Below are positions 14,023 to 36,002 of a stretch of DNA of 39,596 nt, piece by piece. A program made the translations under genes and the position numbers. Position 1 is the first letter of the stretch. Each line of letters begins with the position of its first letter. The stretch covers positions 1 to 39,596 of the forward strand of contig JWZX01003357.1 of NCBI GenBank assembly GCA_001275005.1, read 5' to 3'. Origin of the DNA: Chrysochromulina tobinii (taxonomy: Eukaryota). The notes under the pieces are model-generated. The model worked only from the letters and a program-made list of their open reading frames with translations. It was not told the origin of the DNA and searched no databases.

Positions 14023-14072
14023 GGCGACGCTGTTACGCGTGGTTGACGGGCCCTTTTCCTCTCGCGGGCTGG

Positions 14073-14094
14073 AATGCCGCTTGACCCCTTCGGT
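14073..14094 (+). repeat. Dispersed hairpin motif, copy 2, interrupted after ...cggt by a retroelement terminus
   Basis: aatgccgcttgaccccttcggt is followed directly by aaaaagacaccggggggagccgggac. Confidence 0.75.
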
Positions 14095-14121
14095 AAAAAG
14101 ACACCGGGGGGAGCCGGGACA
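14095..14121 (-). mobile_element. Short inverted copy of the retroelement terminal motif
   Basis: aaaaagacaccggggggagccgggaca is close to the reverse complement of 15010-15034; the same 19-mer (aagacaccggggggagccg) occurs at 16303-16321. Confidence 0.65.
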
Positions 14122-15041: not shown

Positions 15042-15267
15042 ACCAGCCAACAACACATGTTTTCAATATTTGCATGTTTTTGAATCATCCTACACCGCCG
15101 GTTGAGGAGATTGTAGACTCGAGTGACGCCCGCGGTGCGCGTGTCCGTGAAGCGAGTGTGAACGAGAACGAGGTTTTTCCTTCACGCGTTCGTGATCGCG
15201 TTTGTACGTATTGGTGTGCGGTGACTTGGGATGATACGAGTACATGAACAACTGACGAATCTCACTC

Positions 15268-16116: not shown

Positions 16117-16235
16117 GGTCGCCTCCTGATCGCTGATGACCTGACCAGTGTGAAGTGTGAGTCTCACTCACGGATAGCTCACGGACGAGAGGTTTTGCAC
16201 ATTCCTGCCTCTGGGGGCCATGCAACGAAGGTGAA

Positions 16236-16273
16236 GTCCCGGCTCCCCCTATCCCCCGGTGTTTTTGAACGGT
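16236..16273 (+). mobile_element. Short copy of the retroelement terminal motif
   Basis: gtcccggctccccc(tatccccc)ggtgtttttgaacggt matches 15011-15041, including the tail ccccggtgtttttgaacggt. Confidence 0.65.
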
Positions 16274-16299
16274 TTAAAGAGCAATTGTTAAAGAGATCT

Positions 16300-16390
16300 A
16301 ACAAGACACCGGGGGGAGCCGTGATATACACGGTGTGTGACTTCTGACACACGGAGACGGACACACGAGCACACGAATCACACAGACGAG
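16300..16390 (-). mobile_element. ~90-bp inverted 3'-end fragment of the same retroelement family
   Basis: Reverse complement contains tcgtctgtgtgat (also at 14974-14986), then gtgtccgtctccgtgtgt, and ends ggctccccccggtgtctt. Confidence 0.65.
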
Positions 16391-16625
16391 CCTCTTAACC
16401 ATCCCTATTTGGACCCATGAACTTGATATTTTTGAGGAAATTTTGAGGACTTTTGGGGCTGTTTCAAAAAGAAGTTTTGTGTTTTGGCACAAAGCACTTC
16501 TCGTGGGACGACCCCGCGACGACTTCGCATTCACGGGAGTCGGCCTGCAAGCCACACCTCACAGTAAGAGCGCGTTGCAGGCGGCATCGTTCGCGCCGCG
16601 TGTTGCCCGGCAATAGCACGGCCTC

Positions 16626-18139
16626 ATGCCCCCGTCAGCTCCTGAGGGTGGGAAGAAGAAGAAGGCGGCCGCAGAAGCGGACGGCGTTCAGCTCATGCCA
16701 GTTGAGAAGCTGCAGGAGATTGCGGATGCCAAGATCGCCGAGGCATCCGCCGTAGAACTGGCAGCGCAGCACATGTCCACAAGTCTGGAGCTAAAGATTG
16801 GGGTCGCAATTCAAAAGCAAAAGATGAGCGTTGCGGACCTCCTCCGCAAGTGGGACGCCAGCGGTGACGGCGAGATCCAGCCCATTGAGCTTCGGCAGGT
16901 TGTGCGCAACCACCTCAAAATCAAGGCTGACAACAAGGAGATTGACGCCCTCTTCAACAGGCTGGACAGTGACGGCGGCGGCTCGATCGATTTGAAGGAG
17001 ATGGGCGATGCAATGAGGTTTTTCCAGCAGTCGGTGGCGACGGCCGCCGCAGATGAGGCAAAGCAGATGGCAATTGCCAAGGAGTTGCGCGATCAGGCAG
17101 CCATGATCTCTGATTGCGCAAAGAACACAGCCCGCGTGGAGGAGCTTAGGGTTAAGGTGAATGGCATCAAAAGCGGCGTGTGCAGTGGGCCGCTTTTTGA
17201 TAAGATTGCTATGGCAATCGTGGGCTTAGCCACGTCGACGAACGAGAGCGACGCGAAATCAAAGGTGGCGAACTCTCTGGACCCCCAAAAGGCAGGCATC
17301 GTCGAGGCCAAGGAATTCAAGAAGTGGGCCAAGGGATTCATCAATAATCCGGATGGCGTGGCGCCCGATGAGTATGCCACGTGCTACGAGGATTTGCAGG
17401 TGGCGACCGGTACGTCTCCATTGGATGCCAAGATGGGCTTCAGGAAGCTGTGGGATCGCGTCGAAGAGACGATTAAGGAATCGGAGGCTGTAATCAAAGA
17501 GTTCGAGAAGCTTCAGAAGGAGACCAAGAAGGTGCAGAAGGCAATCAAGGAGATGCAGGCTGCGGACAAAGCCATTGCGCAGGAGAAGGAGGCGGCGGCA
17601 CTCAAGGCGGAGGAGGAGAGGCAGCTAGAGGCCGAGGCCAAGAAAGCAGCTAAGGCGGCGGCCAAGGCGGCGGCGCTTGAGGCCAAGAGGAACCATGAGC
17701 AGAGCTTCAACAATCGCGTTGAGATGAAGCGCAAGGCCGCCGCCAAACAAGGGCAATCAGCGTCGGACAAGAAGGCGGCGGAGGCACGGATGCGCAAGGC
17801 CTTTGCCGTCTTCGACGTCGACGGCGACGGCAGCCTGACGGTGGACGAGCTGAAGGCGGTGCTGCTGCGCGGCGACTCGGTGCTCACCGAACAAGACGTT
17901 GAGGATCTCGTCAAGGAGTTCGACGCCAACGGGAACGGCGTGCTCGAGTTTGACGAGGTGATGAGGGCGGTCTCGAACCCAAAGCGTGCCCATTCGCGTC
18001 GCAGTCCAGCCACTGCTGTGTCTGCACCATACCCCTGCCTGCCTCGATTGCTGACTGCTGCGTGGTCCAATCGTGGCAGTTTCAACCGCTCTTCGACGTT
18101 CTTAACGAAGTGGGCTTCGACAATCCGATGGCGTGCTGA
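16626..18139 (+). CDS. Multi-EF-hand Ca2+-binding protein with central coiled coil (exons 16626-17957 and 18080-18139)
   Basis: EF loops DASGDGEIQPIEL, DSDGGGSIDLKEM, DVDGDGSLTVDEL, DANGNGVLEFDE|F. A GT-AG intron at 17958-18079 (with ctgac branch-like site) restores the last EF helix FQPLFDVL...AC*. The track ORF reads through the intron. Confidence 0.85.
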
Positions 18140-18747
18140 GCCACACGCTAGCATGGCCACGCGGTCATATCTCAGCCGTTTGGAGCGCTGGGATCTGGCT
18201 GGGATACGTGAGTGGGGTCGCCGACTGGAATATTGTCGCTGACATGCTCTTCTGGACGCCATCGCTGGTATCAATTAACGTGGTCGTGGCGTGTGTGTGT
18301 CTGTTAAAACGGCGCCTCGTCGTGACGTGTGTGTGTGTCGAAGGCGCCGTGTTAAAAGATGAAACGTTGTACGTTGGGTTGGGGTCGACCGACTCCTCAA
18401 GAGAGAGATTTGTAACTGACCAAGGTCCAAGCTCTAGTAGCTACCCACATAGCTCACATACTTTCGTACTTACGTGTTACGAATCCGGGATGTTGAACAG
18501 TTCTGTGAACAGTCAACGGATCAATACAGCGAACAGCCTAAGCGGCGCCGCTCCGCTTTCATGTAAGCCCAAGGGCCCGGCCCAAGGCCAACGGCCGGCG
18601 CGCCCGCTCGCGGGGACGTGTGTGAATAATCGCATTTAAAGAAACCGCTGAGGAGTTGCGATTTTTGCATTTGGCCCAGAGGCGCAAGAGGCCTGGGGTT
18701 CAGACCCGGGCAAAAACGAGGTGTGAATGATCATGCCATTCCGTCGT

Positions 18748-18777
18748 AATGCCGCTTGACCCCAACGGTTAAGCGGC
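18748..18777 (+). repeat. Dispersed hairpin motif, copy 3 (complete stem-loop gccgcttgac-cccaacg-gttaagcggc)
   Basis: 10-bp stem with one G-T pair and a 7-nt loop; core shared with 11064 and 14073. Confidence 0.8.
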
Positions 18778-18998
18778 CGTGAACCAACGTGTGAAGAGAG
18801 ACAGACAGTCGCCCGGCCAGGGGGAAGGGGTATGCGGGGAGAGGTCTCCCTGCCGTTTGGGGTATTGGGCATACCATGGGGATACATACCTGGGGGAGAT
18901 TCGCAGCGCAATGACGCGCATGATGTCGGTCTCTCTTTCGAGAGTTAAGTGTTCCCGCCCACCCACCGCGATGTAAGCCTGGTCTAGCTTAATTAGCA

Positions 18999-19106
18999 GG
19001 GACCGGGGTTTCGCGCTCACCAGGCTGCTTGTGTAGCTTTGATGATCTGCAATTAACAGTTTCAACGCGCGACCAGGTTTACTGCGGGGTATTTGTTGAA
19101 GTGTGA
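18999..19106 (+). repeat. Dispersed ~85-110 bp element, copy A, just upstream of the DNA methyltransferase ATG
   Basis: 18999-19083 is a close reverse-complement match to 39510-39596; weaker similarity continues to tgtgaa at about 19106. Confidence 0.85.
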
Positions 19107-19118
19107 ACACCAGCCACA

Positions 19119-21041
19119 ATGAAAATGCCTTTGGCCCCGACCGAGACGGACGACGCTGCGAACGACGCTGCGGCCTTGCCGGATGACGCGGCCATCGGCG
19201 CTTCAGCCACAGCAGCCCACGCGGCTGACTGCACTCTGCTTAGCGCTCTATGGCACCCGTCAGCGGGGGTGCCAGTCGGCTGCCTCCTTGTGCCGAGTGC
19301 CCACATGAAGCTAGTGAAAGCGACACTCCATGCTGCAGGAAAGGAGGGCACGCAGTGGCTGCGAAGGGACGGGGTCCAGCGCGCACGCGTTGGCGCTGAT
19401 GGAGCGCCCTCCAGCGGTGCTGACGGTGTCCCCCCTGCAGGCGCCGGCGTGGTCTTTGAGGTGCATTTGAGCCTCGCGGGGGCGGCACGGCTCGAGGCCC
19501 ACCGCAACGTGCCGTGCGCGTTGTCCGAGCTGCTCTTGAGTGGTCAGATCCGATGGATGCCCGGGGTGCGGCTGCGAAGATCGCGGGCCGAACCGCGCTT
19601 GACTGCCACGGCCGCCGCCATGATCCAAACCGCAATCGCCGCCGCCGTCATGCCAGCTGCCGCTGCCGCCGGCGTCCATAGCACGACCACCGCCCTTGAC
19701 CCAAAGCCCGCCGCTGATGCCTCCGAGACCGGCCGTCGTCCCTGCAGCTTTCGATTCGCAGAGCTCTTCGCTGGTATCGGCGGCTTCCGCGTGGCTCTGG
19801 AGGCGCTGGGCGGTGCGTGTGTCTTTGCGTCCGAGATGGATCCCCACGCGGCCGCCACGTACGCGCTCAACTTTGGCGCGCTGCCCGAGGCGGGCGACAT
19901 CACCGAGGTGGAAGCGGCCGATTTGCCTCCCCACGACCTTCTCGTGGGAGGCTTCCCTTGCCAGTGCTTCTCGCTTGCGGGCGAGCAGCTTGGTCTGCGC
20001 GACGACGCTCGTGGTCAGCTGTACCTCGAGTGCTGCCGAATACTGTGTACAGGGCGCCCGGCCGCCTTTTTGTTGGAGAACGTGGTGGGGCTCTTCACCC
20101 TCGATGGCGGTGTATTCCACAGGGAGTACGAGCAGCGCCGTCCTGGGCGCGTGCACGAGCGTATCGTGGCCGACCTTTCCTCGTGTGGCTACGTCGTCCA
20201 GAGCGCCGTCCTGGGCGCACATGCCTTCGGCGTGCCCCAGTTCCGCGACCGACTCTTCCTCGTCGGCTTCCGATCCGCCGACGCCGCAAGCCGCTTTGAG
20301 TGGCCGCACAACCATGCGCACCCTGCCGACTGCTGCGTCGACAGCTGCCGTCCGCTACGCTTGATCCTCGAGCCCGACGACAGTGTGGCAGTGCGTGCTG
20401 CCTCGCTTACCACGGCGCAGTATGCCAAGGTGCGGCGCGGCATGGTGGACGGCAGCCGCGTGGCGAGGCTCGACAGGCCTTCACTCTGCCTCATGTCCTC
20501 TTATCGCTCCGGCTGGACACGTCAGGCATGCAAGCTGTTACGCACTTGTCAAGGAAAGACGGTGCTTCATGACGACAGAGGCATGCACAGAGGCGCCGTG
20601 GTGGGCATGTACGGAGGCGCCGCGCCGGCCGATGCCACTGATGGTGCCGAGAGCAACGGCGACGAGGGCGTCAGCGGCGAGGGCGGTGGCGGCGAGGACG
20701 GCGGCGGCGAGGAATGCGACGACGCGACGAATGGCAAGGTGGCGGGCGGTGCTGGGGGTCATAATGAGGGAGCGGAGCCTGCAGTAGAGGGCGCACGCGG
20801 CGAGGGCGCACGCTTCTACACGGCACGGGAGGCGACGCGCTTGATGGGCTTCCCGGAGAGTTTCCGCATCCCTGGCCACCCGACGCCCGAGCACGGCGGG
20901 CCCGCGTACGAGGCGCATGAGCGTTACTTCCGCCAGATTGGCAATGCCGTGTGCCCGCCCGTCGTCGAGGCGGTGGCGCGCCAGATGCTGCGCGCCCTCA
21001 ATGTACCATTCCAGGTCCACGAGGAAGAGGAGACGCTATGA
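19119..21041 (+). CDS. C5-cytosine DNA methyltransferase, bacterial-like catalytic domain with N-terminal extension
   Basis: Motifs in canonical order: I ELFAGIGGF, IV LVGGFPCQCFS, VI FLLENVVG, VIII PQFRDRLFLVG, IX REATRLMGFPESF, X RQIGNAVCPPVV. Confidence 0.92.
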   Translation: MKMPLAPTETDDAANDAAALPDDAAIGASATAAHAADCTLLSALWHPSAGVPVGCLLVPSAHMKLVKATLHAAGKEGTQWLRRDGVQRARVGADGAPSSGADGVPPAGAGVVFEVHLSLAGAARLEAHRNVPCALSELLLSGQIRWMPGVRLRRSRAEPRLTATAAAMIQTAIAAAVMPAAAAAGVHSTTTALDPKPAADASETGRRPCSFRFAELFAGIGGFRVALEALGGACVFASEMDPHAAATYALNFGALPEAGDITEVEAADLPPHDLLVGGFPCQCFSLAGEQLGLRDDARGQLYLECCRILCTGRPAAFLLENVVGLFTLDGGVFHREYEQRRPGRVHERIVADLSSCGYVVQSAVLGAHAFGVPQFRDRLFLVGFRSADAASRFEWPHNHAHPADCCVDSCRPLRLILEPDDSVAVRAASLTTAQYAKVRRGMVDGSRVARLDRPSLCLMSSYRSGWTRQACKLLRTCQGKTVLHDDRGMHRGAVVGMYGGAAPADATDGAESNGDEGVSGEGGGGEDGGGEECDDATNGKVAGGAGGHNEGAEPAVEGARGEGARFYTAREATRLMGFPESFRIPGHPTPEHGGPAYEAHERYFRQIGNAVCPPVVEAVARQMLRALNVPFQVHEEEETL

Positions 21042-21177
21042 AGGGTCTCAGGAGTCCGTACTCAAGAAGTTCATGAAAGTTTGTGCAGGTGCTTGCGTTT
21101 CCGTGTTTAGTCCATCTTGAAAAAGAGCCGACTGACTGTGAGAGAGGGGTACAGAAAGCTTTGAAGGACAGGGAAAC

Positions 21178-22839
21178 ATGCGGGCCTTCGCGATCGCCAC
21201 GCGGGCCTGGTGCCTTCATGAGGCTTTGAAACTTTGGTACATACCCGCCTCGCCACTATGGAAGACTCTTTCCTGGCTCATCGTCCTTGCGAGCTCAGCA
21301 CGGCCTGCCCCTAAGACGTTTGCTCTCGCACTGGTTGTGCGGCTTGCAGATACGCTGTCTATCATGCCCGTCATGTGGGACAGCTATTACTGGTGCCTCC
21401 AAGTTGATGGTGGGCTGCTCTTGTGCGTAGGCTACCTCGCATTGGTGCGCGGTCTTTCGGCCGACTCGCACGCCGACTCGCTTGCAGCCTGGTGGGCCAC
21501 CACCGCACGACAGCAGCTCGCCATCTTCTACCTCGCGGCAGGCGTGTGGAAGGTCAATACTTCGTTTCTCGACGCCCGCACTTCATGCGCGCCCATTTTT
21601 GTGCTCACGCTGCTCCAAACTCTTGGTTACACGCCGCCGCCGCTTCGCGCCTCGCAGCTTGCGCTGCTCGCGCCAGGCGTGACGATTCTGGGAGAGTTGA
21701 CCATTGGCATTCTCCTACTGCTCCCGTCACGTGCTGCCGTGCGCATCGGCGTGCTATCCGCGCTCTTGCTTCACCTGGGCATCGCTCTCACGCCGCCGCC
21801 CAACAACGCGACGCCCTTCTCCCTGACGTGCGTCGTTCGTCTGCTTATCACGGAGTCCGCCGCCGTCGCGCGTGCATGGAATGAGATGGGTGCGAGTGGC
21901 AGCGGCATTGGCCAGTACCTCGCCACTCCCGCCATCGGCATGCTCCTCGCGAGCCTGTGCATGGGCATCTGCTACCGGCGAGCGCTTGCCTTCCCGCCAA
22001 CGGCCCTCGGAGCGGAGCTCGACTGGTGGGTAGGTACGTACACTTGCCTCGCGGTCCTGATAGCCCGGGCGATGTACAGCGACGTCGCGAACAAGCCGAC
22101 TCCGACTACGAAGTCACTGGCGCGCGGGCTGCGCCCAGCACTCGTGCTACTCGCTCTCGCTTACGCCTTTGGTGGTCCGCTCCTCGGGATTCACGACCTC
22201 GGTGCATGCAACATGTATTCCAACCTCAGAATGTACGCGGGCACCAACCACCTTTTCCTGCCGACGGGGCTGATCGGCCATGTGTGGCCGGAGGCGACGC
22301 AGCTCGTGCGCGTCGAGCAGTCATCGTCGGCATACATCAACTCGATCTACCCCGGGGAGGTCACCTCGCAGATCGCTCCGGGGGAACTCTCGTTGCTCGC
22401 CGATGCTGGCCACTCGGCACATATGTTTAATGCGATGAAGGCGCGAATCCTCGGGCCAGCATTCGCCCCTGCCCATGCCGCATTCCATCGGTACACCGTG
22501 ACCGCGCTTGAGATGAAACGTCTGCTCGCTGAGGCGCGCGCCACTGGCGAGAAGTTCGAGATCACATATACGCTCCTCGACGCCACTGGCGGCGACGAGC
22601 GTTGGCGGCGCGATTCGCTCGGTCGCACCGTGACGCTCAAAGAGGATGGCAAGGGTAAGCGCTCATGCACGGTGGGCTGTGGGCCGCTCGAGCTCATACC
22701 GTGCCCGTGTGCGGCGGATGAACTGCCGCTGCAGCCTCCCCCGTCGTACTGGGCATCCAAGACGCTCATCCAGCAGCCGTACCCGATCGTTGACGACGCG
22801 CACAAGTGGGAGGGCGAACTTGTGTGCTTCGGCCCGTAA
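21178..22839 (+). CDS. Polytopic membrane protein, HTTM-like
   Basis: Multiple hydrophobic helices; AIFYLAAGVWKVN resembles the HTTM YxxAGxxK motif; MYSNLR motif; soluble C-terminal part. Family call is tentative. Confidence 0.6.
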   Translation: MRAFAIATRAWCLHEALKLWYIPASPLWKTLSWLIVLASSARPAPKTFALALVVRLADTLSIMPVMWDSYYWCLQVDGGLLLCVGYLALVRGLSADSHADSLAAWWATTARQQLAIFYLAAGVWKVNTSFLDARTSCAPIFVLTLLQTLGYTPPPLRASQLALLAPGVTILGELTIGILLLLPSRAAVRIGVLSALLLHLGIALTPPPNNATPFSLTCVVRLLITESAAVARAWNEMGASGSGIGQYLATPAIGMLLASLCMGICYRRALAFPPTALGAELDWWVGTYTCLAVLIARAMYSDVANKPTPTTKSLARGLRPALVLLALAYAFGGPLLGIHDLGACNMYSNLRMYAGTNHLFLPTGLIGHVWPEATQLVRVEQSSSAYINSIYPGEVTSQIAPGELSLLADAGHSAHMFNAMKARILGPAFAPAHAAFHRYTVTALEMKRLLAEARATGEKFEITYTLLDATGGDERWRRDSLGRTVTLKEDGKGKRSCTVGCGPLELIPCPCAADELPLQPPPSYWASKTLIQQPYPIVDDAHKWEGELVCFGP

Positions 22840-23414
22840 GTTATGAGTGCTCACCCTCAGGCCTCGCTATGGTCGAGGGGAGGCGTCCGAAGGTTGTGCC
22901 TGATTCCTGAGTTAAGCCCGCGCGCTCCACGAGACGCCGGCTCGACCGCTGTCGTGGCCGCCCGGGAACGCTGCGCGTCACGCTCTTGGCGTGCACTGCG
23001 TAGGGTGGCCCTCGCCGTCGTACTACGGTCTCATGTCCAGTGTGCCCCCTTAGGACTCCGACTCGGAGATCTACTCTCTCGCTACTCTCTCGCTTCTCAC
23101 ACGCGCAGGCGCCCGCCGATCGGCAATCGAATCCTGGAGTCTGGAGAAGGGCTGCGGGTTCGGGGCGTGTGAGCTGCCTCGTCACTCGGCCGGTTTCGGG
23201 ATTCAAGGCGGTGAGTGGATTGTGTGCGAATGATCAGCGATTTATGCCTCCGAGGTGCCCTAGGAGGCCCACAGACGACGGTGGTGTTGATGAGCCTCTA
23301 AAAAAGTGAACGTCCCGGACACTGCACTGACTTCGAGCACCCCGCGCATTGCGTTGCATCCAATCCGCGTGCCCGGGCGTCGTCCGCCGTGCATGTCGCC
23401 GTGGGGCGCGTATG

Positions 23415-24423
23415 CTATCCGAGGAGCACGAAGCTGCTCGCGGCCTCACGCAGCTCTGAGGCGCGCTCCTCCCAGACGGCGGCGGGTACACGCGAGGCGA
23501 ACGTATACAGCGAGCCGCGCGCCGCGCCCACCACGCAGATCGTGTAGCTCGGTGGCTGCGCCTCGCTCGTGTACTCGACTCGGTACTCGAACTGATAGAG
23601 CGGCAGTCCCGAGCGCGCGGAGGGGCGCTCGGCAGCGGCGAGGAGCGTCGTCTGGCGCACGACGGTCTGCTTGCTGATCGTCGCCTCTAGAAGCCGCTGC
23701 GCGCCCTCCCTCGGATCGCCTAGTGCGCCACGCAGAGTGAAGCCCGGCGCGAGCCGCCCCCACGACCACAGAGAGGTTCTCATCGCCCGTGCCGCCCTGC
23801 GGCCCGACGGCGACCGCCACACCCTGCTGCGAACGGCGCGATGGCGTGCGCGACTGCGCGGTGGCCGCGAGCGTCGGGTCCATCATGCGGCGCGACGTTG
23901 CTGCGTCCAGGTTCCGCATGTAGATCGCTTGGTCCTGCACGTACGTTGCCGGGTACCGAAACTCGAATCGCTTGGTCTCGTCCACGTAGCGCTTGAAAGC
24001 GCCCGGTGTGCTGTAGTCGAGGTAGCCCTGGGCGTACGGGTAGAAGCGCCGCTCCGAGATCGGGTAGAAGGTGTCCAGCTGAGCTTCGCGAGCCACATCC
24101 GGTGCCAGCGAGAGCAAGAAACTGCCAATGCCCCACAAATTGGTCGCCGGCGCGATCAGGCCCCAGATGCCTAGGCTCGTGAGGATGCCCCGACGCGGCG
24201 AGGGTCCAAGGAGCCAAAATGAGAGCGGGAGCGGTTCGTCATCTGCAAAGCGGCCCGCCCCAGACCAATTGTCGCTGAACGTCTTCTTGGCAGCAGGAGC
24301 GGCAGATTGCGGCGGCGGCACGTGCGGCTCCGGTGTCGTGCACATGCGCGTGTATGCTCGCGCTCGTGCCACAGGAGGGCTTGTGGCTGGCAAAAGCGCC
24401 GCGAGGGCGAAGGAAGCGAGCAT
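23415..24423 (-). CDS. PsbP-domain protein (PPD7-like), plastid-targeted; one apparent frameshift at ~23757-23761
   Basis: Signal-like MLASFALAALL from ATG 24423; NLWGIGSFLL..LDTFYPI, FEFRYPATYVQDQ, VAVGPQGGTGDENLSVVV. The PsbP C-terminus (LYQFEYRVEY...GSLYTFASRVPAAVWEERASELREAASSFVLL*) lies in another frame, joined by removing one G from a G5 run. Confidence 0.78.
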
Positions 24424-24546
24424 ATGACTGGCTTGGGGCGTCGAATTGAGCGGACTCCTCAGACGCTCAACACGTTCGAGCGCGCTCTCGGGTTTCTGTC
24501 GCGCCAATTGCCTTTTGGATCTCGTCGCCAGATCGCGTTCTGCAGA
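24424..24546. promoter_or_regulatory. Putative compact bidirectional promoter (123 bp between divergent ATGs)
   Basis: Lies between ATG 24423 (minus) and ATG 24547 (plus); positional inference only. Confidence 0.45.
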
Positions 24547-25335
24547 ATGCGTCGTGCCATTCTTTTTAGCGTCGGCGCTGCGTCGGCGCTGCGGCTCCCC
24601 GCAGCCGCCGCCCCGCTGTTGCCGCAGCAGCTGCCATTGCGTGCAACGGTGCGCCTGTGCGCCGATGCTGCTGGGAAACAGCTCACTGTCACGGTGAAGC
24701 GCTCCTCGGATGGCGCCACCGCTTACGCCGCTGCAGCGCCGTCAGTGCAGATGAAAGCAGAAGAAGCAGCTCCAGCGGCTGGCGACGCCCCAGTTGCCAC
24801 GACCGCGCCTCCTGCCGCCGAGTCGGACGGGGAGAGCGCGTTCTCGTTGCTCGACGTGCGCGTAGGCAAGATTGTGGAGGCGTGGGCGCATCCTGACTCG
24901 GAGAAGTTGTGGTGCGAGAAAATCGACGTGGGCGAGGCTGAGCCGCGCCAGATCGCTTCGGGCCTGCGTGCCTACTACCCGAACGCCGAAATGCTCGTCG
25001 GCCGCAAGGTGCTCGTCGTCTGCAACCTCAAGGAGGCGAAGCTCGCGGGCTTCGCGTCCAACGGCATGGTGCTGTGTGCCGCGAGCCCGGACCGCTCGAC
25101 GGTGGCCTTCGTGGAGCCGCCCGAGAGCGCCGCGCCAGGCGAGCGCGTGCTCGAGCAGGGTGCTGCGCTCGTCGAGCCCGCCAGCCCCAATGCGGTCAAG
25201 AAGAAGAAGCTGATGGAGAAGGCGGCTGAGGGGCTGCGCGCCGTCGACACGGTTGCCACCCACGCGGGCAAGACGCTCGTCGTGGCCGGCGGCCCGTGCA
25301 AGAGCCCCACCGTCACGAGCGGCACCATCAATTGA
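24547..25335 (+). CDS. tRNA-binding OB-fold protein (EMAP II/Arc1p/MetRS C-terminal-like) with N-terminal targeting presequence
   Basis: LDVRVGKIVEAWAHPDSEKLWCEKIDVGEAEPRQIASGL, VVCNLKEAKLAGFASNGMVLCA; signal-like MRRAILFSVGAASA-LR. Confidence 0.88.
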   Translation: MRRAILFSVGAASALRLPAAAAPLLPQQLPLRATVRLCADAAGKQLTVTVKRSSDGATAYAAAAPSVQMKAEEAAPAAGDAPVATTAPPAAESDGESAFSLLDVRVGKIVEAWAHPDSEKLWCEKIDVGEAEPRQIASGLRAYYPNAEMLVGRKVLVVCNLKEAKLAGFASNGMVLCAASPDRSTVAFVEPPESAAPGERVLEQGAALVEPASPNAVKKKKLMEKAAEGLRAVDTVATHAGKTLVVAGGPCKSPTVTSGTIN

Positions 25336-26975: not shown

Positions 26976-27871
26976 GAGCGATAGGAGCGCAGAGGGAGCG
27001 CTCATGGGCCATGGCGGTGGCGCATGCGGCGATGTGGCGCTGGCCGCGTGTCGGCGTGGGCGCGTGGCTGGCCTCTTGATGAGCCCGATGCGCCTCGGCT
27101 GCACCCCGGCCCCCCGCACCCCCGACCCGCACGCCGCAGGCGCAGCACGCGTAAGCTGGAGCTCGTGTGATAATGTCGCGCGTACCCTGTAAAGCGTTGT
27201 TAGCGCCCGTGGTGTTAGCGCGCGGTCCCCGCCGGCGCCGCGGTCCCGGCGGGTCGCGTCGCAGAACCAGAAGGCGCTCGGGCTGGCGGGCTCGCGGCCA
27301 ACGTGTCATCTCCGCACTCAGTCCTGCGCGCTGTCGTGCGCGGGCACCTGGCCGTATAACTCATCGCACAGAATACATAGATTGAAAGGCAACTGGACAA
27401 CCTCGACCATATGATGATCGGTTACAGACACCCACCACTATTCACACATGAACACGGTTGTGTCAATAGATTAACACAGCAAGCGAACACATCACACCGC
27501 TCAACACCCCCCCCGGACCGGAATGGACTCTGGACACGCATCTGAGCACATTCACCACGCACCCACCGTCGCTCGCTCCGAGCGCGCCCGGCCGCGTTCC
27601 TTCCCTCGCCCAGACTGCCCACGCCCCCACACCACAAATCGACGCGTTCGGGGGCGTAAGTGCTCACGAGCGCGCGAGCGCCTGCCTCCAAACCTCATCC
27701 AATCTCCAGAGGCCGCTCCCTTTGAGATCGCCGAAGCGCCATGGGCGCCTGGCGGGACGCACCGCCCCGGGCGCCTGGCGGAAACGCGCCGCGGGAGCCC
27801 AGCCACCGCCCGCACGCACTCACCTGCCGCTGCTGCACCCGTCTAGTGATTACGAGCCTCTCACATGCCTC

Positions 27872-30800
27872 TCACATGCCCATCGAGGAGGACGAGTTGT
27901 CGAAGATGACGAGGGAGAAGGCGAACGCCTGCATCGCGGAGAATGGGAAGTTGAAGTCAACGTTGAACTTGTTCTCATCGACCTTGCCCATGAGCATCTG
28001 CGCGTCGTTCTCGCCGCCGCCCTTGTAGGTGAGTTGGATGTTCTTGCACGAGGCGTGCGTCGCGCGCCCACGGAAGTCGAGCTGGTAGATCTGCGTCTCC
28101 TCATTCCACTTTGGCTCGCGGTTCTTGAAAATAGTCGCGTCGCTCGGCTTGGGCATTTTGATGCGCTCCTCGAGGGTATCCTTGCCTTCCACTTGGGGCT
28201 GGAAGAGTGCCGCCACGCCGTCGGCGTCGACGGCCGGCATCGCGACCTCCATCGCGCCCGGGTTACGGTTTCGCAGCGAGTTAATGAAGTGTACGTGCAT
28301 GAGCTCGCGCCGCAACTCCTTGCCGGCCGCCTTCTTGTCACCGGGCGCCGCGCCGCCGTCGTACAGCGTGTATTCCATCGCCTTCTTGTCCACCTTGAGA
28401 TTCCCGATGATGTTCTCGCCCGCCTTGGTCCCATCCTGGTCGAGCGAGATGACGTACACACCCGAGGACTTCTTGCCCGTGAAGCAGTACATGTCCTTGG
28501 AGGCCGAGATGGACATGTAGAAATCGAACTTGGAGGAGCCGAGCCGGCTCTTTGTGCGGAGCACGTAGCATTGCACCGGCCGCTGGGTGCACGAGGGCTC
28601 GACGAGCATCGCCTTGAGCTCCGTGTGCCGTGTGCCAAGCAGCTGCTGCAGTCGCGCGCGCACCTGCGCCTCGCCCTGGAGCGGCACGCCGCTGTCCTGT
28701 CGTGCCACGGGGCGCGGGCGGCGCGGGCGCAGCAGCCCTGGGCGCCGGCGGCGGCGCTGTCGGCATCGAGGAGCCAGCACTGGGAGCGCTGGGAGCGCCG
28801 TACTGCTTGGGGTTGAGGATGTCGGCGTCGTGCTCCTGCCCCTTGGCCGCGAGGTACCTCTGCTGGTACGAGTAGTCGAGAGGGTGCTGCCAGAGCACCT
28901 GCTGCGTAATGGTGTGGATGTAGTACATGTCGCCGTTGGGCGACTCGGCCTGGTCCCATCCCTCGGGATCCTCAGCTTGCAGCGCCTCGTCGGCGATCCA
29001 GAGGAAGTCGAGGTCAATATTGAGGTCCATGCCCAGGTAGACTGCGTACTCGAGCACGTCGGACGCCTCCGACTTGAAGGTGATCTTGCGACGCGCAAGC
29101 TCTTTGATCGCGCGAGCGCGCAGCTCCTCCTCGGCCTGGATGGCATTCTGCTCGGCCTGGATGGCCGCCCTCTCCGCCTCCTCCTTCTCCTTCTTGGCCC
29201 TTTCCACCGCCGCCTTGTCTGCGTTCATCAAAGCCGCTTTCTTGTCGGCCTCCGCCTTGGCCTTCGCGTCCGCCTCCGCCTTCGACTCGGCCTTGCGCCG
29301 GTTCTCCTCCTCCTCCTGCCGCTTCTTGCGCTCCTCGGCGAGCCTCTTCTCCTCGGCTGCCTTCTGCTCGGCGGCCATCTTCTTGAGACGCTCCTCCTCT
29401 TCCTTCCGCAGCCGCTCCTCCTCCACTAACTTGGCATGCGCCGTCTGCGCCTTCTGCATCAGCACCGCGTCGACCCCCTTGACTTTGCTCGCCATCGCGA
29501 TCGCCGCCGCGAGCGCCGCCATGTCGAAGCCGGCCATGGCCTTCTCAAGCGCCTGCGTCGCCGCCAAGCGCTCTGCCTCCTCCTGCTTGAGACGAGCGAG
29601 CGTCGCCTCCGCCTTGTCGACGGCGGCCTTGCCCTTGGGCGCCAGGTGCACGCCCGCGCTCTTCGCAGCGGCGATGGCCGCCGCCAGTGCCGGTATGTCG
29701 GTACCCGCCGCGGCCGTCTCCATGGCCTTCTGCGCCTTGAGCCGAATCTCACGCAGCTGGCGAGCCAGTTTTCGCGCCTTCATGGCGCGCGCGCCGGCCT
29801 GCAGCTTGATGACGACCTTGGCCATCCGCTCGGTGCGCTTGGTCTTGAGGCCGTCGAGCACGCCGAGCGCCATGAAGATTCGCTCCCTGCCCAGCTTGTG
29901 CTGCTTGGGCGTCACCTGCATGTTGGCGCAGATGGCGGCTGTCTTCTCCCTGGGCGAGCGCGTGTCGCCGCGCGGGATCTTCGCCACGTCACCAAAGTAC
30001 GAGGCGAACTCGGCGTAGGTCATGCGGTCAGGGTAGCCTGTACGCGCCACGCGAAGCGCGTCGAGCACGCCGGACGTGTGCAGCTGGCGCGAGACCGTCG
30101 ACTCGTCCCACACGTCTGCCGACTTGCGGTCGTTTGGCTTGAAGCAACGGATGAAGTGGAGTTGCGACGCCTGGAGCACGTCGTACAGGCTGGTCAGCTG
30201 CGTGCGGAAGGTGTCGACGACGCCCTTGAACTTGGTCGACTTGAACTTCGCGCCCTTGCCGCCCGCCTCGGGCTTTGAGGTGTCCTCGAAGAGCCGCTTG
30301 AGCACTGAGTTGTTGCTAAACTGCATCAGGATCACGAGGTCACCCGAGAGCGGGTCCTTGTTCTTGTCGAGCCAGTTGGTCGTTTTGTAGGTAACACGAC
30401 CCGCGAAGTGCTCTACCTGGAAGCCGTCAGAGCGGCTTGCGCCCTTGACGATGGAGAGGGCCGAACCCTTGGCCTGCGCGTCGTGCAGCTTCTCGGTGAA
30501 CCCCTTGTCGGAGCCCTTAGGCACCATGCACTCCTCGGAGAGAAGGTTCCACAAGCCCGTGTTCGGCACCTCGAAGATGGCGATGAGTGCCTTGTTGTCG
30601 ACGTAGGTGATCTCGTCTGCGTCGATGCCGTCCGCCTTGTAGGCTTGTAGGGTCTGCTCGAAGACGGTGGCCGTGAAGAGCGCCTGCAGCTTCTCGTTGG
30701 TGAAGTTGATGCAGAGCTGCTCGAGCGAGTTGACCTCGAAGACCTCGAAGCCGAAGATGTCGACGACGCCGATGATCGAGGCCTTCGACTCGTCGATCAC

Positions 30801-32040
30801 CTCTTCACCAGCCGCGAGGGCTTGGTTGATCTGCACGATGAGGTAGTCGAAGAGCTTCGAGTAGATGGCCTTCGAGAGCGCATCGCGACCGTCGTTGGCC
30901 GCATCGAGCTTGAGGTCCTGGTCGACGAACTCGGCGCCCGCCTTGATCTTGCGCTTGGTGAGTGCTTTGCCCACCGAGTCCGGCTGCAGCCCCAGCACCT
31001 GCTCGGCGTCCTTGAGGTACTGCATCGACGACGAGAGGATCTGGGCCGACTCGGTCTTGGCCGGGTCGAATGTGACGTTGCCGAGCAACATGACGCCAGC
31101 CATGAGCTGCCAGTACTCCTTCTGCTCCGCGTCGGACACGTTCTGTGCGGTGAGCGCCTCCTTGAGCTCCGCGAGGCCGTGCGCGTCGTGCTTGGCCGGC
31201 ACCGGGTCGCCATGCTTGAGGTAGCTGTATGACTTACTGTCGCTCGAGCTGAGCTGGATACCCTTGAGCTCGGCAGCGCTCATGCCGCGCAGCAGCTCGT
31301 AGAAGATGTGGTACGCGCGCTCGCCGTTGCCGATGTGCGTGATGCGCGACTTTTCGAGCAGGTAAGTCGAGAGGGAGGCGCCCTGCGCAGCACAAGCCAT
31401 CGAGCCGTGAGCAAGCGAGGGGCACAGGGATTCCAGCGCGCGCGCGGCGCCCGAGACGTGCCCCGCCGGGCTCGGATGGGGGCCGGTGCGCGGGCGGGGA
31501 GGCGCCTGGGCGGGGCGGGGCGCTGGGCGGCAGGCGCGCCTTGATGCGCGCGCTCTTGTCGAAGTAGAGCTTGAGGAACTTGCCGAAGCGCGAGCTGTTG
31601 TCATTGCGCACGGTCTTGGCGCACCCAAAGGCCTCAGTGATCGGCTGCGACTTGTACACCTTCTCCTCGAGCCCGTGCGATGCATTCGACACGTAGCGCA
31701 GGTACTGGAGGATGAAGCGCGCGCTCTCCGTCTTGCCCGCGCCCGACTCGCCCGAGATGACGAGCGCTTGGTTGACACCATTCGAGATCATCGCGCGATG
31801 CGCCGTGGCAGAAACCGCAAAAATGTGAGGCGGTTCGGACTCGAGCGACATGCTCCCCTTGTACTGCGCGAGCTTGCCATCGTCGTAGAGGTGGATCGTC
31901 TTGTACGGGTTGATCGCGATGAGCACGGCGCCGTTCTTAGTGTAGATTTCGTCCTTCTCGTGGCGCGTCTTGAGCGTCGCCATCACGACGCTGTCATCGA
32001 TTGACGACAGCTGTGCGAGATCGTCTACCAACTCCGCCAT
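27872..32040 (-). CDS. Myosin with IQ, charged helix/coiled coil, CEP164-like WW module and C-terminal Tubby domain (~1,335 aa; GC-AG intron 31383-31539; frameshift near 28710)
   Basis: P-loop GESGAGKT, switch I AKTVRNDNSSRFGK, YLLEKSR, switch II DIFGFE, LEQLCINFTNEKLQ, HFIRCFKPN; IQ IKLQAGARAMKARK; WW GWDQAESPNGDMYYIHTITQQVLWQHP; Tubby FKNREPKWNEETQIYQLDFRGRATHASCKNIQL..MGKVDENKFNVDFNFPFSAMQAFAFSL. Confidence 0.82.
31383..31539 (-). other. GC-AG intron (157 bp) in the myosin motor domain
   Basis: Minus strand AAG|gcgcgc...gcgcag|GGC joins DKSARIK to GASLSTYLLEKSR, restoring the conserved myosin segment in frame. Confidence 0.85.
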
Positions 32041-32423
32041 GGGTGCCCGCACTTCTTTCTTGCAAGACTGGTCCGCTAAAGAGGGCACGCGCGGAGGGCC
32101 TGCGAGCGCGCACGGAGGCGCCGGCGAGGTGAGCAAACGGTGTGGGCTCGGGCGAGGTGAGCCAACGGTGCGCGCTGGCTACCTCACAGTCGTCCTCGCA
32201 GGGTGCACTCGCAACTTTGCTGATGCTTCGTTTCTTGGATGAAGAATGTTGCGTCGTCGAGGTTGAGGGAGGTTTACATACTACATGTAGCAACGCGACA
32301 TCTTCAAACCCACTCGGTTCGCATGCTGTGAGCGACTGCTCGGAGAGTTTCGTTTCCTTCGCAATCAACGGACGTGGCGGTTCTCGGTGGTTTCTCGGTG
32401 CGTCTTTTCGCGGTCCACGAGGC

Positions 32424-35400
32424 ATGGACACATGGCGTGGCATTGAGCTCACGTTCAAGCTTATGACGATGCGCCGGCTGCGCCGGCAGCTCGGCGGCAC
32501 GATTACCAACCGGACGACCAAAGGCTTTGCCGTTCTGCTTGCGTTCGGCTGCGTGGCCTTCGGCGTGGTCGATGTGTACTTCGCCGACAAGCCGACACCA
32601 GGTGACAACTTGAGCAGCGCTGAGGCAGCGGTATTGACTCAGAACTCGGGCAACTCCCTCTACATCAGCATCGACCCGTTCGGGCTGCTCGATAATCGAG
32701 TGAATTGGCTGCTCTTCGCGCTCGCGTTCGTGGTGCTCGTGATCGTGTACAAGCTCGCTGATGTGGTCCGGAGCGTCATCGGCTGGATGGTGCTCGGACT
32801 GGCCGCGTACGCGGCGGTCGTGTTCGCGTGCCGCGATTCTAGCGTCCCCGAGTGTGAGCGCGAGAGTTCCTTGTATATTGTGATCGGCATCTTCGCTGGC
32901 GTCGTGCTGAGTGTGGTGGAGTGGTCGGCGCATCACATCGTCTACCCGTACATGGTGCGGCACGGAATTTGCTGCCTCGCGGACTTCGCATGGTGGTGGA
33001 GCGTGCGCCCACTCGGGCCGCACGCCCCCTCGCAGTTTGTCTACCGGTCCAGCTTCGAGCTGCCGTTCCTGCCGTGCACCGATTTCATCAGCAGTTGGCT
33101 GCGTGAGCCGCCGCGCTTCTTTGGCTATGAAGGGTCGCTGGACGCGGAGGGGCGGCCGCACGGGCTGGGCACGTGGAACGACTCGGCGCGCAACGGCGAG
33201 ACGCTGAACGGCGTGTGGGAGCACGGCCAACCGACTGGTCCCTTCCGAGCAACCGAGTACGGGAGTGGCTTCACCTTCCGCTCGCTGCGCGTCGCGTACT
33301 GCCAATGCCGCGCCGAGCCGCTCGACGAGTACTGGTTCCAAACAGTCCGGCATCCCGACGGGGCGCGCTGGGGGGTGTGCTCGGTCGAGTGCTCCTCGGC
33401 CGGCCGCTTCTTTAATCACCTGCCCGAGGTGACGCCGCTCTCGGGCCCCGAGGCCGCCAAGCCCCTCGGCTGCCAGTGGCGCGATCTGGGCGCCGTCACC
33501 GACTTTGAGGGCGCGAAGCCGTGCAACGGCAAGCAGATAGAGAGCGCAGTGCTCGTGGATGCACTGCGCGCCAAGGGCGCCGGCAGCCACGCCTCGAACG
33601 TCCAATTCAGCGTCGACGAGTTTGCGGCGCTCGGCGTGTCCTCGCTGCGTCGCAACGACTACGTGACGGTGTGCGGCCATTACTGGAAGCCGTCGCAGCC
33701 GTCGGCGGCGTGGTGCATCGAGCAGCTCATCAAGCTGGATGATCCGGAATTGGCTGGGAGCAGGTACCCGCCCACGCTCGTCGTTACAGCCGGGCGCGAC
33801 GGCGTTCAGATCTCGGGCTACAACGCCCCCTCCGTATACACCGCCTTCGAGCGCTCGACGGTGTCGATCGAGTTTGTGCCGGCCGCGTCGAATACCTTGC
33901 CTGTGCTGCCCGATCCAGCAGATGAGTCGACGAGCGACGCCGAGATATCTGGCTCGGCATGCCCGATAGTTGGCGCGGCAGGCGGTTCGACAGGCGGCGC
34001 GGCGGCGGCGGGCCCCGTGCAGGTGCCGGTGCAGGTGCCGAGCTCGGCCGCAGAGGTGCCCGAGCGCTACGTCGTCGTCAGCGAGCAGGGCATCCGCAAC
34101 TTTGTGCTGTCGGAGCTCATGAATGAGGGCGAGGCTCGTGAGCTTGCGGCCAAGCAAACCCTCAACTGGGTGCTCTACAAGGTGAAGAACGGCGTGTACA
34201 CGGAGGTGGATGCGGGAGGCATAGGGCTCGCGAGGCCAAGCATCCGGAGGCACATCGAGAGCAAGTTCGGCGCTGTCTCGGCAGTGGTGGAGCCAGGCTC
34301 GACAGGACCAAACGGGGACGACCCGGTGTTGGCAGGTCTTAGCGTGCGTGGACCCGACGGGCGGCGATGGCGTCTCAACTCGGAGGATGGCAACTACGAG
34401 GCCGTCATCTTCATGCATGGCTTCAACAGCCCCACATCGGACGCTCTCAAGCGCATAGCCCAGCTCTGGGCGCTCGGCGACTTCCCGAACCACCTGCATC
34501 CCTTCGTCTTTGGCTGGCCCGGAGGGAAAACGTCGGGCTACTTCAATGCGAAGCACGTGGCCTCGCAGGAGCCAGCGATGGCGCAGGACTTTGTGGACTT
34601 TATTGAGTCTCTCATCGAGGCAGGCTGCCGAACCATCCATATCCTCGCGCACTCGCTCGGGGCGATGCTCCTCTTCACTGCCTTGCCGCTGCTCACCGAC
34701 TTCCTGCTTCCCGCGGCTGACGGCGGCGGCGCCGTCGCCGCCTCAGCTGCGGAAAGTGCGGAGGCCCTTCGTCGTGAGAAGCCCATCAGCCGATCTCCAG
34801 TAGAATGGCTGGCGGAGCAATTGGGCTGGGCCCCACCCCTTTCCGCCCACCCCTCAGTTCGAGGTCACCTCGACCTGAGCGACCTCAGCAAGCACCCGCG
34901 ACAGCCGCCGCGGAGCGGGCCAAAGATGCGACTCGCAACGACGCTCCTGCTGAACCCGGACGCATCTCTGAACCGATTCGTCAAACACGACTTTGCCGCG
35001 CTCCGCAAGCTGTGTGACCACATCACACTATACGCCGACCACGCCGACGGCGCCCTCGCCTATTCTGAATTCTTCAACCGCGAGCACGCTCTCGGCAAGC
35101 ACCCGTTTGACCTCGTCCACTTGACCGACCAGCCGCCCGACTCGCCCATGGGCAGCGCGCCGTCCTCGCCGCGCAGCCATAGCGATGCCGCAAGGCTGAG
35201 CGACGCCGCAAGGCGGCCACCCATGGCCGCGCCCAAGGCTGCGGTGAGGTCCGAGCGACCGACGCACCGGCGCTCAGCATCTGCGCCTACGAGCCCTATG
35301 AAGCGGGCTCTCTCCCCGCTGGCTTTGACCCCCAGGGTGCCGAAGGTGGAGGAGGGGGATGAGGGGGCGGAAATGGAGGAGGGGCGCGCCGCGTCACGTA

Positions 35401-36002
35401 CATCGAAGTCAAGGTCTAAGGCACGGTCTAAGGCGCGATCTAAGGCACGGGATAAGCCGCTGGCGGTGGTGAACGTCGAGCTCAGTCACTTGGAGTCGGT
35501 GACGGCGGAGTCGCCGGGCGGTGGTGCCGTCGAGCTGAATGGGGCGGGCATCAGGGCGGACACAATCGAGGTGGTAGTGACCGACCCGCCGCCAACGCAG
35601 GTGGGGTCGCCTGCCGCCCTGACGGGGTCGCCCGCCGCCCTCGCCCTGTCGCCAAGTGCAGCGCCGATCCGACGCCAGTTCACGCCGCTGCACTTGCAGC
35701 GTAGCCAGGATGACGGGGCCATCCTGCGCCCAAGGCGCGTGGTGCGCGGTGCGCCGCCGATGGCGCCCCGCGGCAAGCGCATCATGCCCCTCGACCTAGA
35801 CGTGATAGACGTCTCGTGGATGGATAACAACGTGCACGAGATGCGGCACAACTTCTTCAACCTCAACCGCTGGATGATTGATGACATCCGCGAGATTGTC
35901 ATGACGCAGCGGCGTGCTCGCCTTCGCACCTCGCGCATGACCCACCGCTTCACTAATGTCTGGTCCTTCCTCGCCGCCCCGAACCACGTCGTCAACCCGT
36001 GA
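32424..36002 (+). CDS. Membrane protein with N-terminal TM helices and C-terminal alpha/beta hydrolase (DUF900-like) domain
   Basis: About 4 hydrophobic helices; MORN-like GRPHGLGTWND...LNGVWEHGQPTGPF; AVIFMHGFN, PFVFGWPG, nucleophile elbow IHILAHSLG; large low-complexity insert before LDLDVIDVSWMDNNVHEMRHNFF. Start chosen at ATG 32424 (track starts 32142). Confidence 0.75.
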   Translation: MDTWRGIELTFKLMTMRRLRRQLGGTITNRTTKGFAVLLAFGCVAFGVVDVYFADKPTPGDNLSSAEAAVLTQNSGNSLYISIDPFGLLDNRVNWLLFALAFVVLVIVYKLADVVRSVIGWMVLGLAAYAAVVFACRDSSVPECERESSLYIVIGIFAGVVLSVVEWSAHHIVYPYMVRHGICCLADFAWWWSVRPLGPHAPSQFVYRSSFELPFLPCTDFISSWLREPPRFFGYEGSLDAEGRPHGLGTWNDSARNGETLNGVWEHGQPTGPFRATEYGSGFTFRSLRVAYCQCRAEPLDEYWFQTVRHPDGARWGVCSVECSSAGRFFNHLPEVTPLSGPEAAKPLGCQWRDLGAVTDFEGAKPCNGKQIESAVLVDALRAKGAGSHASNVQFSVDEFAALGVSSLRRNDYVTVCGHYWKPSQPSAAWCIEQLIKLDDPELAGSRYPPTLVVTAGRDGVQISGYNAPSVYTAFERSTVSIEFVPAASNTLPVLPDPADESTSDAEISGSACPIVGAAGGSTGGAAAAGPVQVPVQVPSSAAEVPERYVVVSEQGIRNFVLSELMNEGEARELAAKQTLNWVLYKVKNGVYTEVDAGGIGLARPSIRRHIESKFGAVSAVVEPGSTGPNGDDPVLAGLSVRGPDGRRWRLNSEDGNYEAVIFMHGFNSPTSDALKRIAQLWALGDFPNHLHPFVFGWPGGKTSGYFNAKHVASQEPAMAQDFVDFIESLIEAGCRTIHILAHSLGAMLLFTALPLLTDFLLPAADGGGAVAASAAESAEALRREKPISRSPVEWLAEQLGWAPPLSAHPSVRGHLDLSDLSKHPRQPPRSGPKMRLATTLLLNPDASLNRFVKHDFAALRKLCDHITLYADHADGALAYSEFFNREHALGKHPFDLVHLTDQPPDSPMGSAPSSPRSHSDAARLSDAARRPPMAAPKAAVRSERPTHRRSASAPTSPMKRALSPLALTPRVPKVEEGDEGAEMEEGRAASRTSKSRSKARSKARSKARDKPLAVVNVELSHLESVTAESPGGGAVELNGAGIRADTIEVVVTDPPPTQVGSPAALTGSPAALALSPSAAPIRRQFTPLHLQRSQDDGAILRPRRVVRGAPPMAPRGKRIMPLDLDVIDVSWMDNNVHEMRHNFFNLNRWMIDDIREIVMTQRRARLRTSRMTHRFTNVWSFLAAPNHVVNP

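What the first reader, a model, noticed from the sequence alone, without database searches (positions are those of the whole stretch)
27872..32040. Myosin fused to a CEP164-like WW module and a Tubby domain
Seen: an intact-looking motor, one IQ, an E/K/R-rich helix, then DVLEYAVYLGMDLNIDLDFLWIADEALQAEDPEGWDQ...YYIHTITQQVLWQHPLDYSYQQRY (~28855-29063) and a full Tubby domain (~27875-28620). Known: helix-plus-WW with EYA..lG.D....l.WiA.e.l is the pattern of the CEP164 N-terminal domain (centriole distal appendage). Tubby/TULP domains bind PI(4,5)P2 and act in ciliary membrane trafficking. Inference: an actin motor carrying two cilium/basal-body modules, possibly delivering membrane cargo to the flagellar or haptonemal base. 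I do not recall this tail in any defined myosin class.
Basis: partly seen in the sequence, partly recalled or inferred. Interest (0 to 1): 0.85.

Follow-up and report, generated by a model that had tools for sequence, protein, structure and literature searches.

The report
Haptophyte myosin with Tubby-domain tail
This alga has one intact gene, split in the assembly only by a one-base error, for an actin motor whose tail carries a CEP164-type WW module and a Tubby domain; the design is conserved across haptophyte algae and likely ties actin to PI(4,5)P2-rich membrane, while a role at the flagellar base is untested.

Summary
The minus-strand gene (32040-27872, one GC-AG intron, 1336 aa) encodes a motor, one IQ, two helical repeats, a charged helix, a CEP164-type bundle/WW module and a Tubby domain. 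The frame break between WW and Tubby is one extra base at 28709, absent in 4 of 4 runs laid. The architecture is conserved: 17 of 22 long Tubby hits carry Myosin+WW+Tub, and all named myosins are from haptophytes. It is not wholly undescribed. Emiliania orthologues stand in the block labelled myosin XXXII in Sebe-Pedros 2014, whose text lists WW and Tub tails under class XXI. New here: the WW module has the CEP164 fold (best PDB match by sequence and by fold); it marks at least four paralogous subfamilies (WW-Tub, long WW-Tub, WW-Tub-WD40, WW-PDZ); and their Tubby domains group apart from standalone ones, fitting one fusion. The PI(4,5)P2 pocket is largely kept. The cilium-specific features are not: the TTBK2 XP2 groove is changed and no IFT-A helix was detected. 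Best reading: a cortical membrane-binding motor or tether. A basal-body role stays open at about 20%. The scan's notes held no earlier finding of it.

The parts
31540..32040 (-). Exon 1 (aa 1-167): start of the motor, P-loop GESGAGKT (aa 97) and switch I NDNSSRFGK (aa 146); no N-terminal SH3-like extension
31383..31539 (-). 157-nt GC-AG intron
   Evidence: spliced junction present in P0101, identical to the window's exons; orthologues read ...KIKGASL... across it
29870..31382 (-). Rest of the motor and converter: switch II DIFGFE, relay NEKLQ, strut and SH1 region intact (lower boundary approximate)
29772..29807 (-). Single IQ motif (LQAGARAMKAR), 26 residues after the converter motif in 18 of 18 aligned proteins; no myosin-VI-type insert 2
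   Evidence: collinear with scallop S1
29435..29730 (-). Two tandem helix-loop-helix repeats, a predicted helical-bundle extension of the lever; specific to the compact WW-Tub subfamily
   Evidence: AlphaFold helices H89-101, H108-143, H147-159, H165-218; neck profile; no clear PDB fold match
29090..29432 (-). E/K/R/A-rich segment, a predicted single alpha-helix (SAH)
   Evidence: 115 aa; opposite-charge pairs 39 at i+4 against 13 at i+1 and 13 at i+7; long helices in the model
28850..29075 (-). CEP164-type helical bundle with inserted WW domain; most conserved region of the protein (76% mean pairwise identity against 62% for the motor part scored)
   Evidence: phmmer to CEP164 7nwj E 2.3e-9 over 73 aa; Foldseek top 5 all CEP164; VIA Z 10.3, rmsd 2.5, 82 aligned
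28678..28849 (-). Pro/Ala-rich disordered linker holding the one-base assembly insertion at 28709
   Evidence: (pLDDT under 50)
28622..28677 (-). Conserved helix before the Tubby domain (EAQVRARLQQLLGT)
   Evidence: 59% mean identity; helix in the model
27872..28621 (-). Complete C-terminal Tubby domain and stop codon
   Evidence: Pfam Tub; PDB Tubby/TULP E about 1e-27; Foldseek E 3.5e-17 to TULP1

Best explanation
This is a single, conserved haptophyte myosin gene of the group labelled class XXXII whose tail likely works as a two-part membrane adaptor: the Tubby domain is predicted to bind PI(4,5)P2-rich plasma membrane and the CEP164-type WW module is predicted to grip a proline-rich partner. 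The motor has all catalytic motifs and would walk to, or pull toward, actin plus ends, since it lacks the myosin VI reverse-gear insert (inferred). One IQ, two helical repeats and a charged single helix would form a long lever without a coiled coil, so the protein is probably monomeric unless cargo clusters it (inferred). Requiring both a lipid and a protein partner would confine it to particular cortical sites. There it would tether or move membrane against cortical actin, most plausibly in secretion or uptake such as scale exocytosis or feeding (inferred; no localisation data). Shown: one open frame, the domain order, conservation, folds by prediction, kept and lost residues. Inferred: direction, monomer state, lipid and peptide binding, cellular role.
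For: One frame in reads and orthologues. 17 of 22 hits carry all three domains and one more carries Myosin+Tub. Named sources: Chrysochromulina parva, Haptolina brevifila, Phaeocystis globosa and antarctica, Tisochrysis lutea, Emiliania huxleyi. Tubby pocket over 18 aligned proteins: K330 position K/R in 16, R332 position R/K in 18, R363 position R in 18; two basic residues of the second site K/R in 18. K330, R332 and the 301-305 site are from PMC10445746 (passages); R363 is recalled. WW XP-groove residues: Y73 position Y in 18 of 18, W84 position W in 17 of 18 (roles from PMC8752127, passages). Motor motifs intact. Actin disruption blocks scale and coccolith exocytosis in two haptophytes (PMC5684398, passages); that is context, not evidence on this protein.
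Against: The window's own protein has Asn at the K330 position and Lys at R332, and the N310 position (recalled as a pocket residue) is not kept in the family, so lipid binding may be weak in this species. The second basic patch has two basic residues where Tubby has five. No binding, motility or localisation data exist. Direction and monomer state rest on sequence features only. The myosins found in the Emiliania coccosphere proteome were called class VI and listed without Tub (PMC10290126).
Confidence: 0.55

Rival explanations
1. The motor delivers or anchors membrane cargo at the flagellar or haptonemal base, using two modules taken from ciliary proteins.
For: CEP164 is the only solved structure that matches bundle and WW together. 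TULP3 uses its Tubby domain on PI(4,5)P2 and ciliary cargo near the transition zone (PMC11346432, passages). The two modules stay together in several paralogue subfamilies.
Against: The XP2 groove F75/F77 is not kept (I/M/V/T/E and E/A/Q/T/V/S/P in 18 of 18) and R93 is Q in 18 of 18. The Q11/D10 region needed for TTBK2 binding does not align. No Tub_N or TULP3 N-terminal match was found. The module also occurs 2-4 times in non-myosin proteins with IQ, EF-hand or C2 domains, so it is mobile; those proteins' locations are unknown.
Confidence: 0.2
2. The Tubby barrel serves mainly as a protein-cargo adaptor and has drifted from lipid binding; the motor carries vesicles or complexes inside the cell.
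For: The myosin Tubby domains are divergent (26-28% identity to animal Tubby). The window's K330 position is Asn. The divergent paralogue P0281 has T and V at the two pocket positions, and the pocket pattern was not found in P0268 and P0283. Tubby domains bind cargo at sites apart from the lipid pocket.
Against: R332 and R363 positions are basic in 18 of 18 compact-subfamily proteins. Three of the five long-linker proteins have GKLRA, one GKLRS and one GKLAA.
Confidence: 0.18
3. Myosin and Tubby are separate genes, or this strain carries a real frameshifted allele.
For: The window's frames are broken at 28709. The Emiliania CCMP1516 models 436181, 213306 and 437298 lack an in-frame Tubby. P0101 ends off-frame after residue 1047.
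Against: The extra base is absent in 4 of 4 runs. 15 of 15 listed cluster members are in frame. Five JGI members of the 436181 cluster carry Tubby in frame. Transcriptome-derived full-length orthologues exist (P0011, P0061, P0071).
Confidence: 0.04

Closest known systems
Myosin class XXXII (Sebe-Pedros et al. 2014, PMC3942036), Emiliania huxleyi clade in the 'myosin VI-like' group; left among orphans by Kollmar and Muhlhausen 2017 (PMC5583752)
   Same: Ehux_110275 and Ehux_436181 nest with the window's protein in a motor tree (SH-aLRT 98). 213306 and 415936 cluster with 436181. All four stand in the block labelled XXXII in the supplement's text layer. Ehux_450146 and 426799 in the same block resemble the WW-PDZ subfamily by eye.
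   Different: The main text has no passage on XXXII (0 whole-word hits) and the class was drawn from one species. The CEP164 fold, the spread over Prymnesiophyceae and the four tail subfamilies are not in the passages read. Fig. 1 and Fig. 6 could not be seen.
Myosin class XXI of Sebe-Pedros et al. 2014 (stramenopiles plus one haptophyte sequence)
   Same: Described as having tails with IQ, WW, PX and Tub domains (section 22).
   Different: The only Emiliania entry in the XXI block is 461567, whose head looks unlike this family. Which sequence gave the Tub label could not be determined: motif searches found none of the tail motifs in the supplement's sequences. It is either a separate fusion or a misplaced mention.
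CEP164 N-terminal domain (PDB 7nwj, 7o06, 7o3b)
   Same: Three-helix bundle with inserted WW; Y73, W84, H86, P87 and D89 positions kept.
   Different: No XP2 phenylalanines and no Q11/D10 arm; sits inside a myosin tail instead of heading a centriolar coiled coil.
Tubby/TULP proteins (PDB 1c8z, 1i7e, 3c5n, 8fh3)
   Same: Full barrel with central helix; main pocket residues largely kept.
   Different: No IFT-A-binding N-terminal region or F-box detected; fused to a motor; the myosin-borne copies lie on one side of a branch against 45 standalone Tubby proteins.
Myosin VI (and membrane-binding myosins I and X; recalled)
   Same: One IQ, then a helical bundle and a single alpha-helix, then a lipid- and adaptor-binding tail (analogy recalled).
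   Different: No insert between converter and IQ and a different cargo domain; Kollmar 2017 also rejects class VI for the haptophyte sequences.

Membership tests
Myosin class XXXII (Sebe-Pedros 2014) | Motor domain groups with the Emiliania XXXII sequences (the class is defined by head phylogeny only) | tested here: met
   15-row clade with Ehux_110275 and 436181, SH-aLRT 98, quick tree of 25 haptophyte-type motors without outside classes. Label read from the PDF text layer, not from the drawn figure.
Myosin class XXXII (Sebe-Pedros 2014) | Monophyly against other myosin classes | not testable with these tools
   No reference sequences of classes VI, XXI, XXIII or XXX were held as usable proteins.
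Myosin class XXI (Sebe-Pedros 2014) | Head groups with stramenopile XXI and Ehux_461567 | tested here: inconclusive
   The orthologues are listed in another block of the published tree; no own tree with XXI members.
Myosin VI | Insert 2 between converter and IQ | tested here: not met
   Spacing of 26 residues in 18 of 18; collinear with myosin II. The feature itself is recalled.
Active myosin motor | P-loop, switch I, switch II, relay and SH1 region intact | tested here: met
CEP164 N-terminal domain | WW inserted in a three-helix bundle | tested here: met
CEP164 N-terminal domain | XP groove Y73/W84 | tested here: met
   Y in 18 of 18, W in 17 of 18
CEP164 N-terminal domain | XP2 groove F75/F77 and Q11/D10 arm for TTBK2 | tested here: not met
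   No Phe at either position in 18 of 18; the arm does not align; roles
CEP164 N-terminal domain | Localisation at distal appendages | not testable with these tools
   Needs imaging
Tubby/TULP | Complete Tub barrel | tested here: met
Tubby/TULP | PI(4,5)P2 pocket K330/R332/R363 | tested here: inconclusive
   Met in the family (16, 18 and 18 of 18); the window's protein has N, K, R
Ciliary TULP3/TUB adaptors | N-terminal IFT-A-binding helix | tested here: inconclusive
   No Tub_N hit; the TULP3 match starts at residue 155. A short divergent helix could be missed.

The most novel reading that the evidence does not exclude
An early haptophyte fused a myosin once to a CEP164-type WW module and a Tubby domain, then expanded it into at least four subfamilies. 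These form a phylum-specific motor system that uses parts of the ciliary gate to move membrane at the base of the flagella or haptonema, giving the first candidate actin motor for haptonema-linked feeding and scale secretion.
Probability: 0.18. Interest if true: 0.8.

Novelty: new variant of a known kind. Interest (0 to 1): 0.5.

Why it matters
Haptophytes are major marine primary producers with one of the largest myosin sets known (53 in Emiliania) and, in the papers read, no function assigned to this group. Scale and coccolith secretion depend on actin, but the motor is unknown. This family gives a concrete, conserved candidate with testable lipid and peptide pockets. It also supplies a structural marker for class XXXII, and shows the CEP164 bundle/WW fold as a mobile module that Pfam scores only as a marginal WW.

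Tried and rejected
An intron as the cause of the frame break: many GT/GC-AG pairs could restore the frame, but orthologues and reads show a one-base insertion instead. Programmed frameshifting: not needed, since the base is absent from the reads. No whole genome is held, so paralogues, CEP164, TTBK and IFT-A could not be counted in this organism. The first exon and intron are not covered by any read laying. Finding a stramenopile myosin-Tub: the Tubby region of P0143 among 647-2062 aa proteins gave 5 hits, all of this family type; the word filter makes this weak. Among the best 150 of 6336 profile hits, 28 proteins were scanned with Pfam (26 from that list) and all held proteins with my own profiles. 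Every protein with both motor and Tubby also had the CEP164-type module; WW+Tub proteins without a motor looked like fragments but were not checked one by one. The neck repeats gave no fold match above background (best Z 6.8). The Atlas gave only WW clusters at 0.87 or lower for the Emiliania homologue, a lead only. P0240 first looked like a non-CEP164 carrier of the module but is a near copy of the CEP164 N-terminus, so I dropped it from that argument. No complex prediction was run, because no partner is known. Paper searches: myosin+tubby+haptophyte 0; myosin+'tubby domain' 15, none on a fusion by title among 13 listed; 'myosin XXXII' 1; myosin+tubby+oomycete 1, unrelated. Unseen and possibly relevant: Figs 1 and 6 of PMC3942036, Additional file 1 of PMC5583752 (too large), Supplementary Fig. 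16 of PMC10290126 (picture). The scan's own notes held nothing on it.

Full report
Gene structure. The gene lies on the minus strand from ATG 32040 to the stop at 27872. Exon 1 (167 codons) is followed by a 157-nt GC-AG intron; the two exons match database protein P0101 without mismatch to residue 1047. Pfam finds Myosin_head, WW and Tub above their cutoffs. In the window, motor and WW are in one frame and Tubby in another. Laying four of 18 listed runs on 27700-30400 shows base 28709 left out in all four; in X1 and X11 a single RNA-library contig spans the stretch. These are contigs, may be from the same culture, and had no silent-stretch control. All 15 listed members of the 58-member near-identical cluster read through in frame. 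The corrected protein is 1336 aa. It is nearly identical to a Chrysochromulina parva protein, so the window is most likely from Chrysochromulina (inference).

Conservation. A search with the Tubby domain among longer proteins gave 22 hits: 17 with Myosin+WW+Tub, 1 with Myosin+Tub, 3 WW+Tub pieces and 1 unrelated insect WD40-SOCS-Tub protein. Named sources are all haptophytes: Haptolina, Phaeocystis (two species), Tisochrysis, Emiliania, with fragments from Prymnesium polylepis and Pleurochrysis. Over 18 aligned proteins mean pairwise identity is 76% in the WW module, 63% in Tubby, 62% in the motor part scored, about 42% in the neck and 20% in the linker.

Motor and lever. P-loop, switch I and II, relay and SH1 motifs are intact. 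The IQ follows the converter by 26 residues in 18 of 18, so the myosin VI reverse-gear insert (recalled) is absent and plus-end movement is inferred. Behind the IQ are two helix-loop-helix repeats and a 115-residue E/K/R/A stretch with charge pairs peaking at i+4; the model (mean pLDDT 84.7) shows long helices. I read this as an extended lever without a coiled coil; this is inferred.

WW module. Its best PDB match is the CEP164 N-terminal domain by sequence (E 2.3e-9 over 73 residues, bundle and WW together), by Foldseek (the only five hits under E 0.001) and by VIA-align (Z 10.3, rmsd 2.5, 82 aligned; next Z 6.8). In CEP164, Y73 and W84 form the XP groove, F75 and F77 the XP2 groove, and Q11/D10 add contacts to TTBK2 (PMC8752127, passages). 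The myosins keep Y73 (18 of 18) and W84 (17 of 18) but have no Phe at 75 or 77. A proline-rich ligand is therefore likely, but not a TTBK2-like one. The module also occurs two to four times in non-myosin proteins (P0145, P0160 from Apiculatamorpha, P0190, P0197, P0241 from Cyanophora).

Tubby domain. The barrel is complete. Mapping on mouse Tubby by hand, the K330 position is K/R in 16 of 18, R332 is R/K in 18 and R363 is R in 18. The window's protein is one of the two exceptions, with Asn at 330. K330/R332 and the second site 301-305 are from PMC10445746 (passages); N310 and R363 are recalled. [quoted passage not shown]

A larger family. A profile search of 1.84 billion representatives and a third homologue search brought up paralogues: long-linker WW-Tub, some with N-terminal EF hands (P0274, P0292-P0294; an Isochrysis fragment P0291), WW-Tub-WD40 (P0169, P0283), WW-PDZ (Calcidiscus, P0122) and divergent compact forms. 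A quick motor tree of 25 rows separates these groups (no outside classes). In a Tubby tree, 25 myosin-borne domains lie on one side of a branch (SH-aLRT 97) against 45 standalone proteins, taken as the first 45 of every second one of 98 eligible. That fits a single fusion, but long branches and limited sampling leave it unproven.

What is in print. Sebe-Pedros et al. 2014 (PMC3942036; abstract, passages, sections 22 and 25, supplement part 1 of 34 and searches) state that myosin XXI tails include IQ, WW, PX and Tub. In their supplementary tree, Ehux_110275, 436181, 213306 and 415936 stand in the block labelled XXXII. The first two nest with the window's protein; the other two share a cluster with 436181. 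The main text does not discuss XXXII. Kollmar and Muhlhausen 2017 (PMC5583752; passages, section 7, one supplement searched) leave Emiliania and Prymnesium myosins largely as orphans. No paper in the searches named under Tried and rejected describes the fusion or its CEP164 fold; three figures or files that could bear on this were not visible.

Verdict. The gene belongs to a numbered but undescribed class, and a myosin-Tub pairing has had a one-line mention, so it is a new variant of a known kind. The most likely job is coupling cortical actin to PI(4,5)P2 membrane through a lipid-plus-peptide tail (0.55); actin dependence of scale secretion (PMC5684398, passages) offers a setting. The ciliary reading remains possible (0.2) but rests on domain ancestry alone.

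Noticed in passing
P0107, P0355, P0357 (EMIHUDRAFT_436181, 213306, 437298): These public Emiliania gene models lose the Tubby domain, while five JGI members of the same cluster carry it in frame; annotation errors probably hide the architecture.
   Followed up: partly
P0032 (Chrysochromulina parva EukProt model): The model lacks 24 residues including switch I, apparently from a wrong splice donor at the GC-AG intron.
   Followed up: partly
P0169, P0283 (unnamed): Myosin with CEP164-type module, a divergent Tubby domain and a C-terminal WD40 propeller.
   Followed up: partly
P0292, P0293 (unnamed): Myosins with N-terminal EF hands, a long linker, CEP164-type module and Tubby domain.
   Followed up: partly
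P0122, P0326 (Calcidiscus leptoporus): Myosin with the CEP164-type module followed by PDZ domains; Sebe-Pedros 2014 counted PDZ as a metazoan innovation among amorphean myosins.
   Followed up: partly
P0145, P0160, P0190, P0197, P0241: Non-myosin proteins with two to four tandem CEP164-type bundle/WW modules, with IQ repeats, EF hands or C2; an apparently unnamed module family.
   Followed up: partly
P0240, P0327 (Pelmatolapia mariae): Fish proteins named 'NEDD4-like' that consist of three near copies of the CEP164 N-terminal domain; misannotation or tandem duplication.
   Followed up: no
window 32133-36002 (+): Large head-to-head neighbour with a DUF900 alpha/beta-hydrolase hit; unrelated to the myosin as far as seen.
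   Followed up: no
window 11166-25335: Ordinary neighbours: Methyltransf_16, U-box/Sel1, ankyrin, EF-hand, C5 DNA methylase (19107-21041) and tRNA-binding domain genes; no ciliary gene among 22 frames scanned.
   Followed up: no
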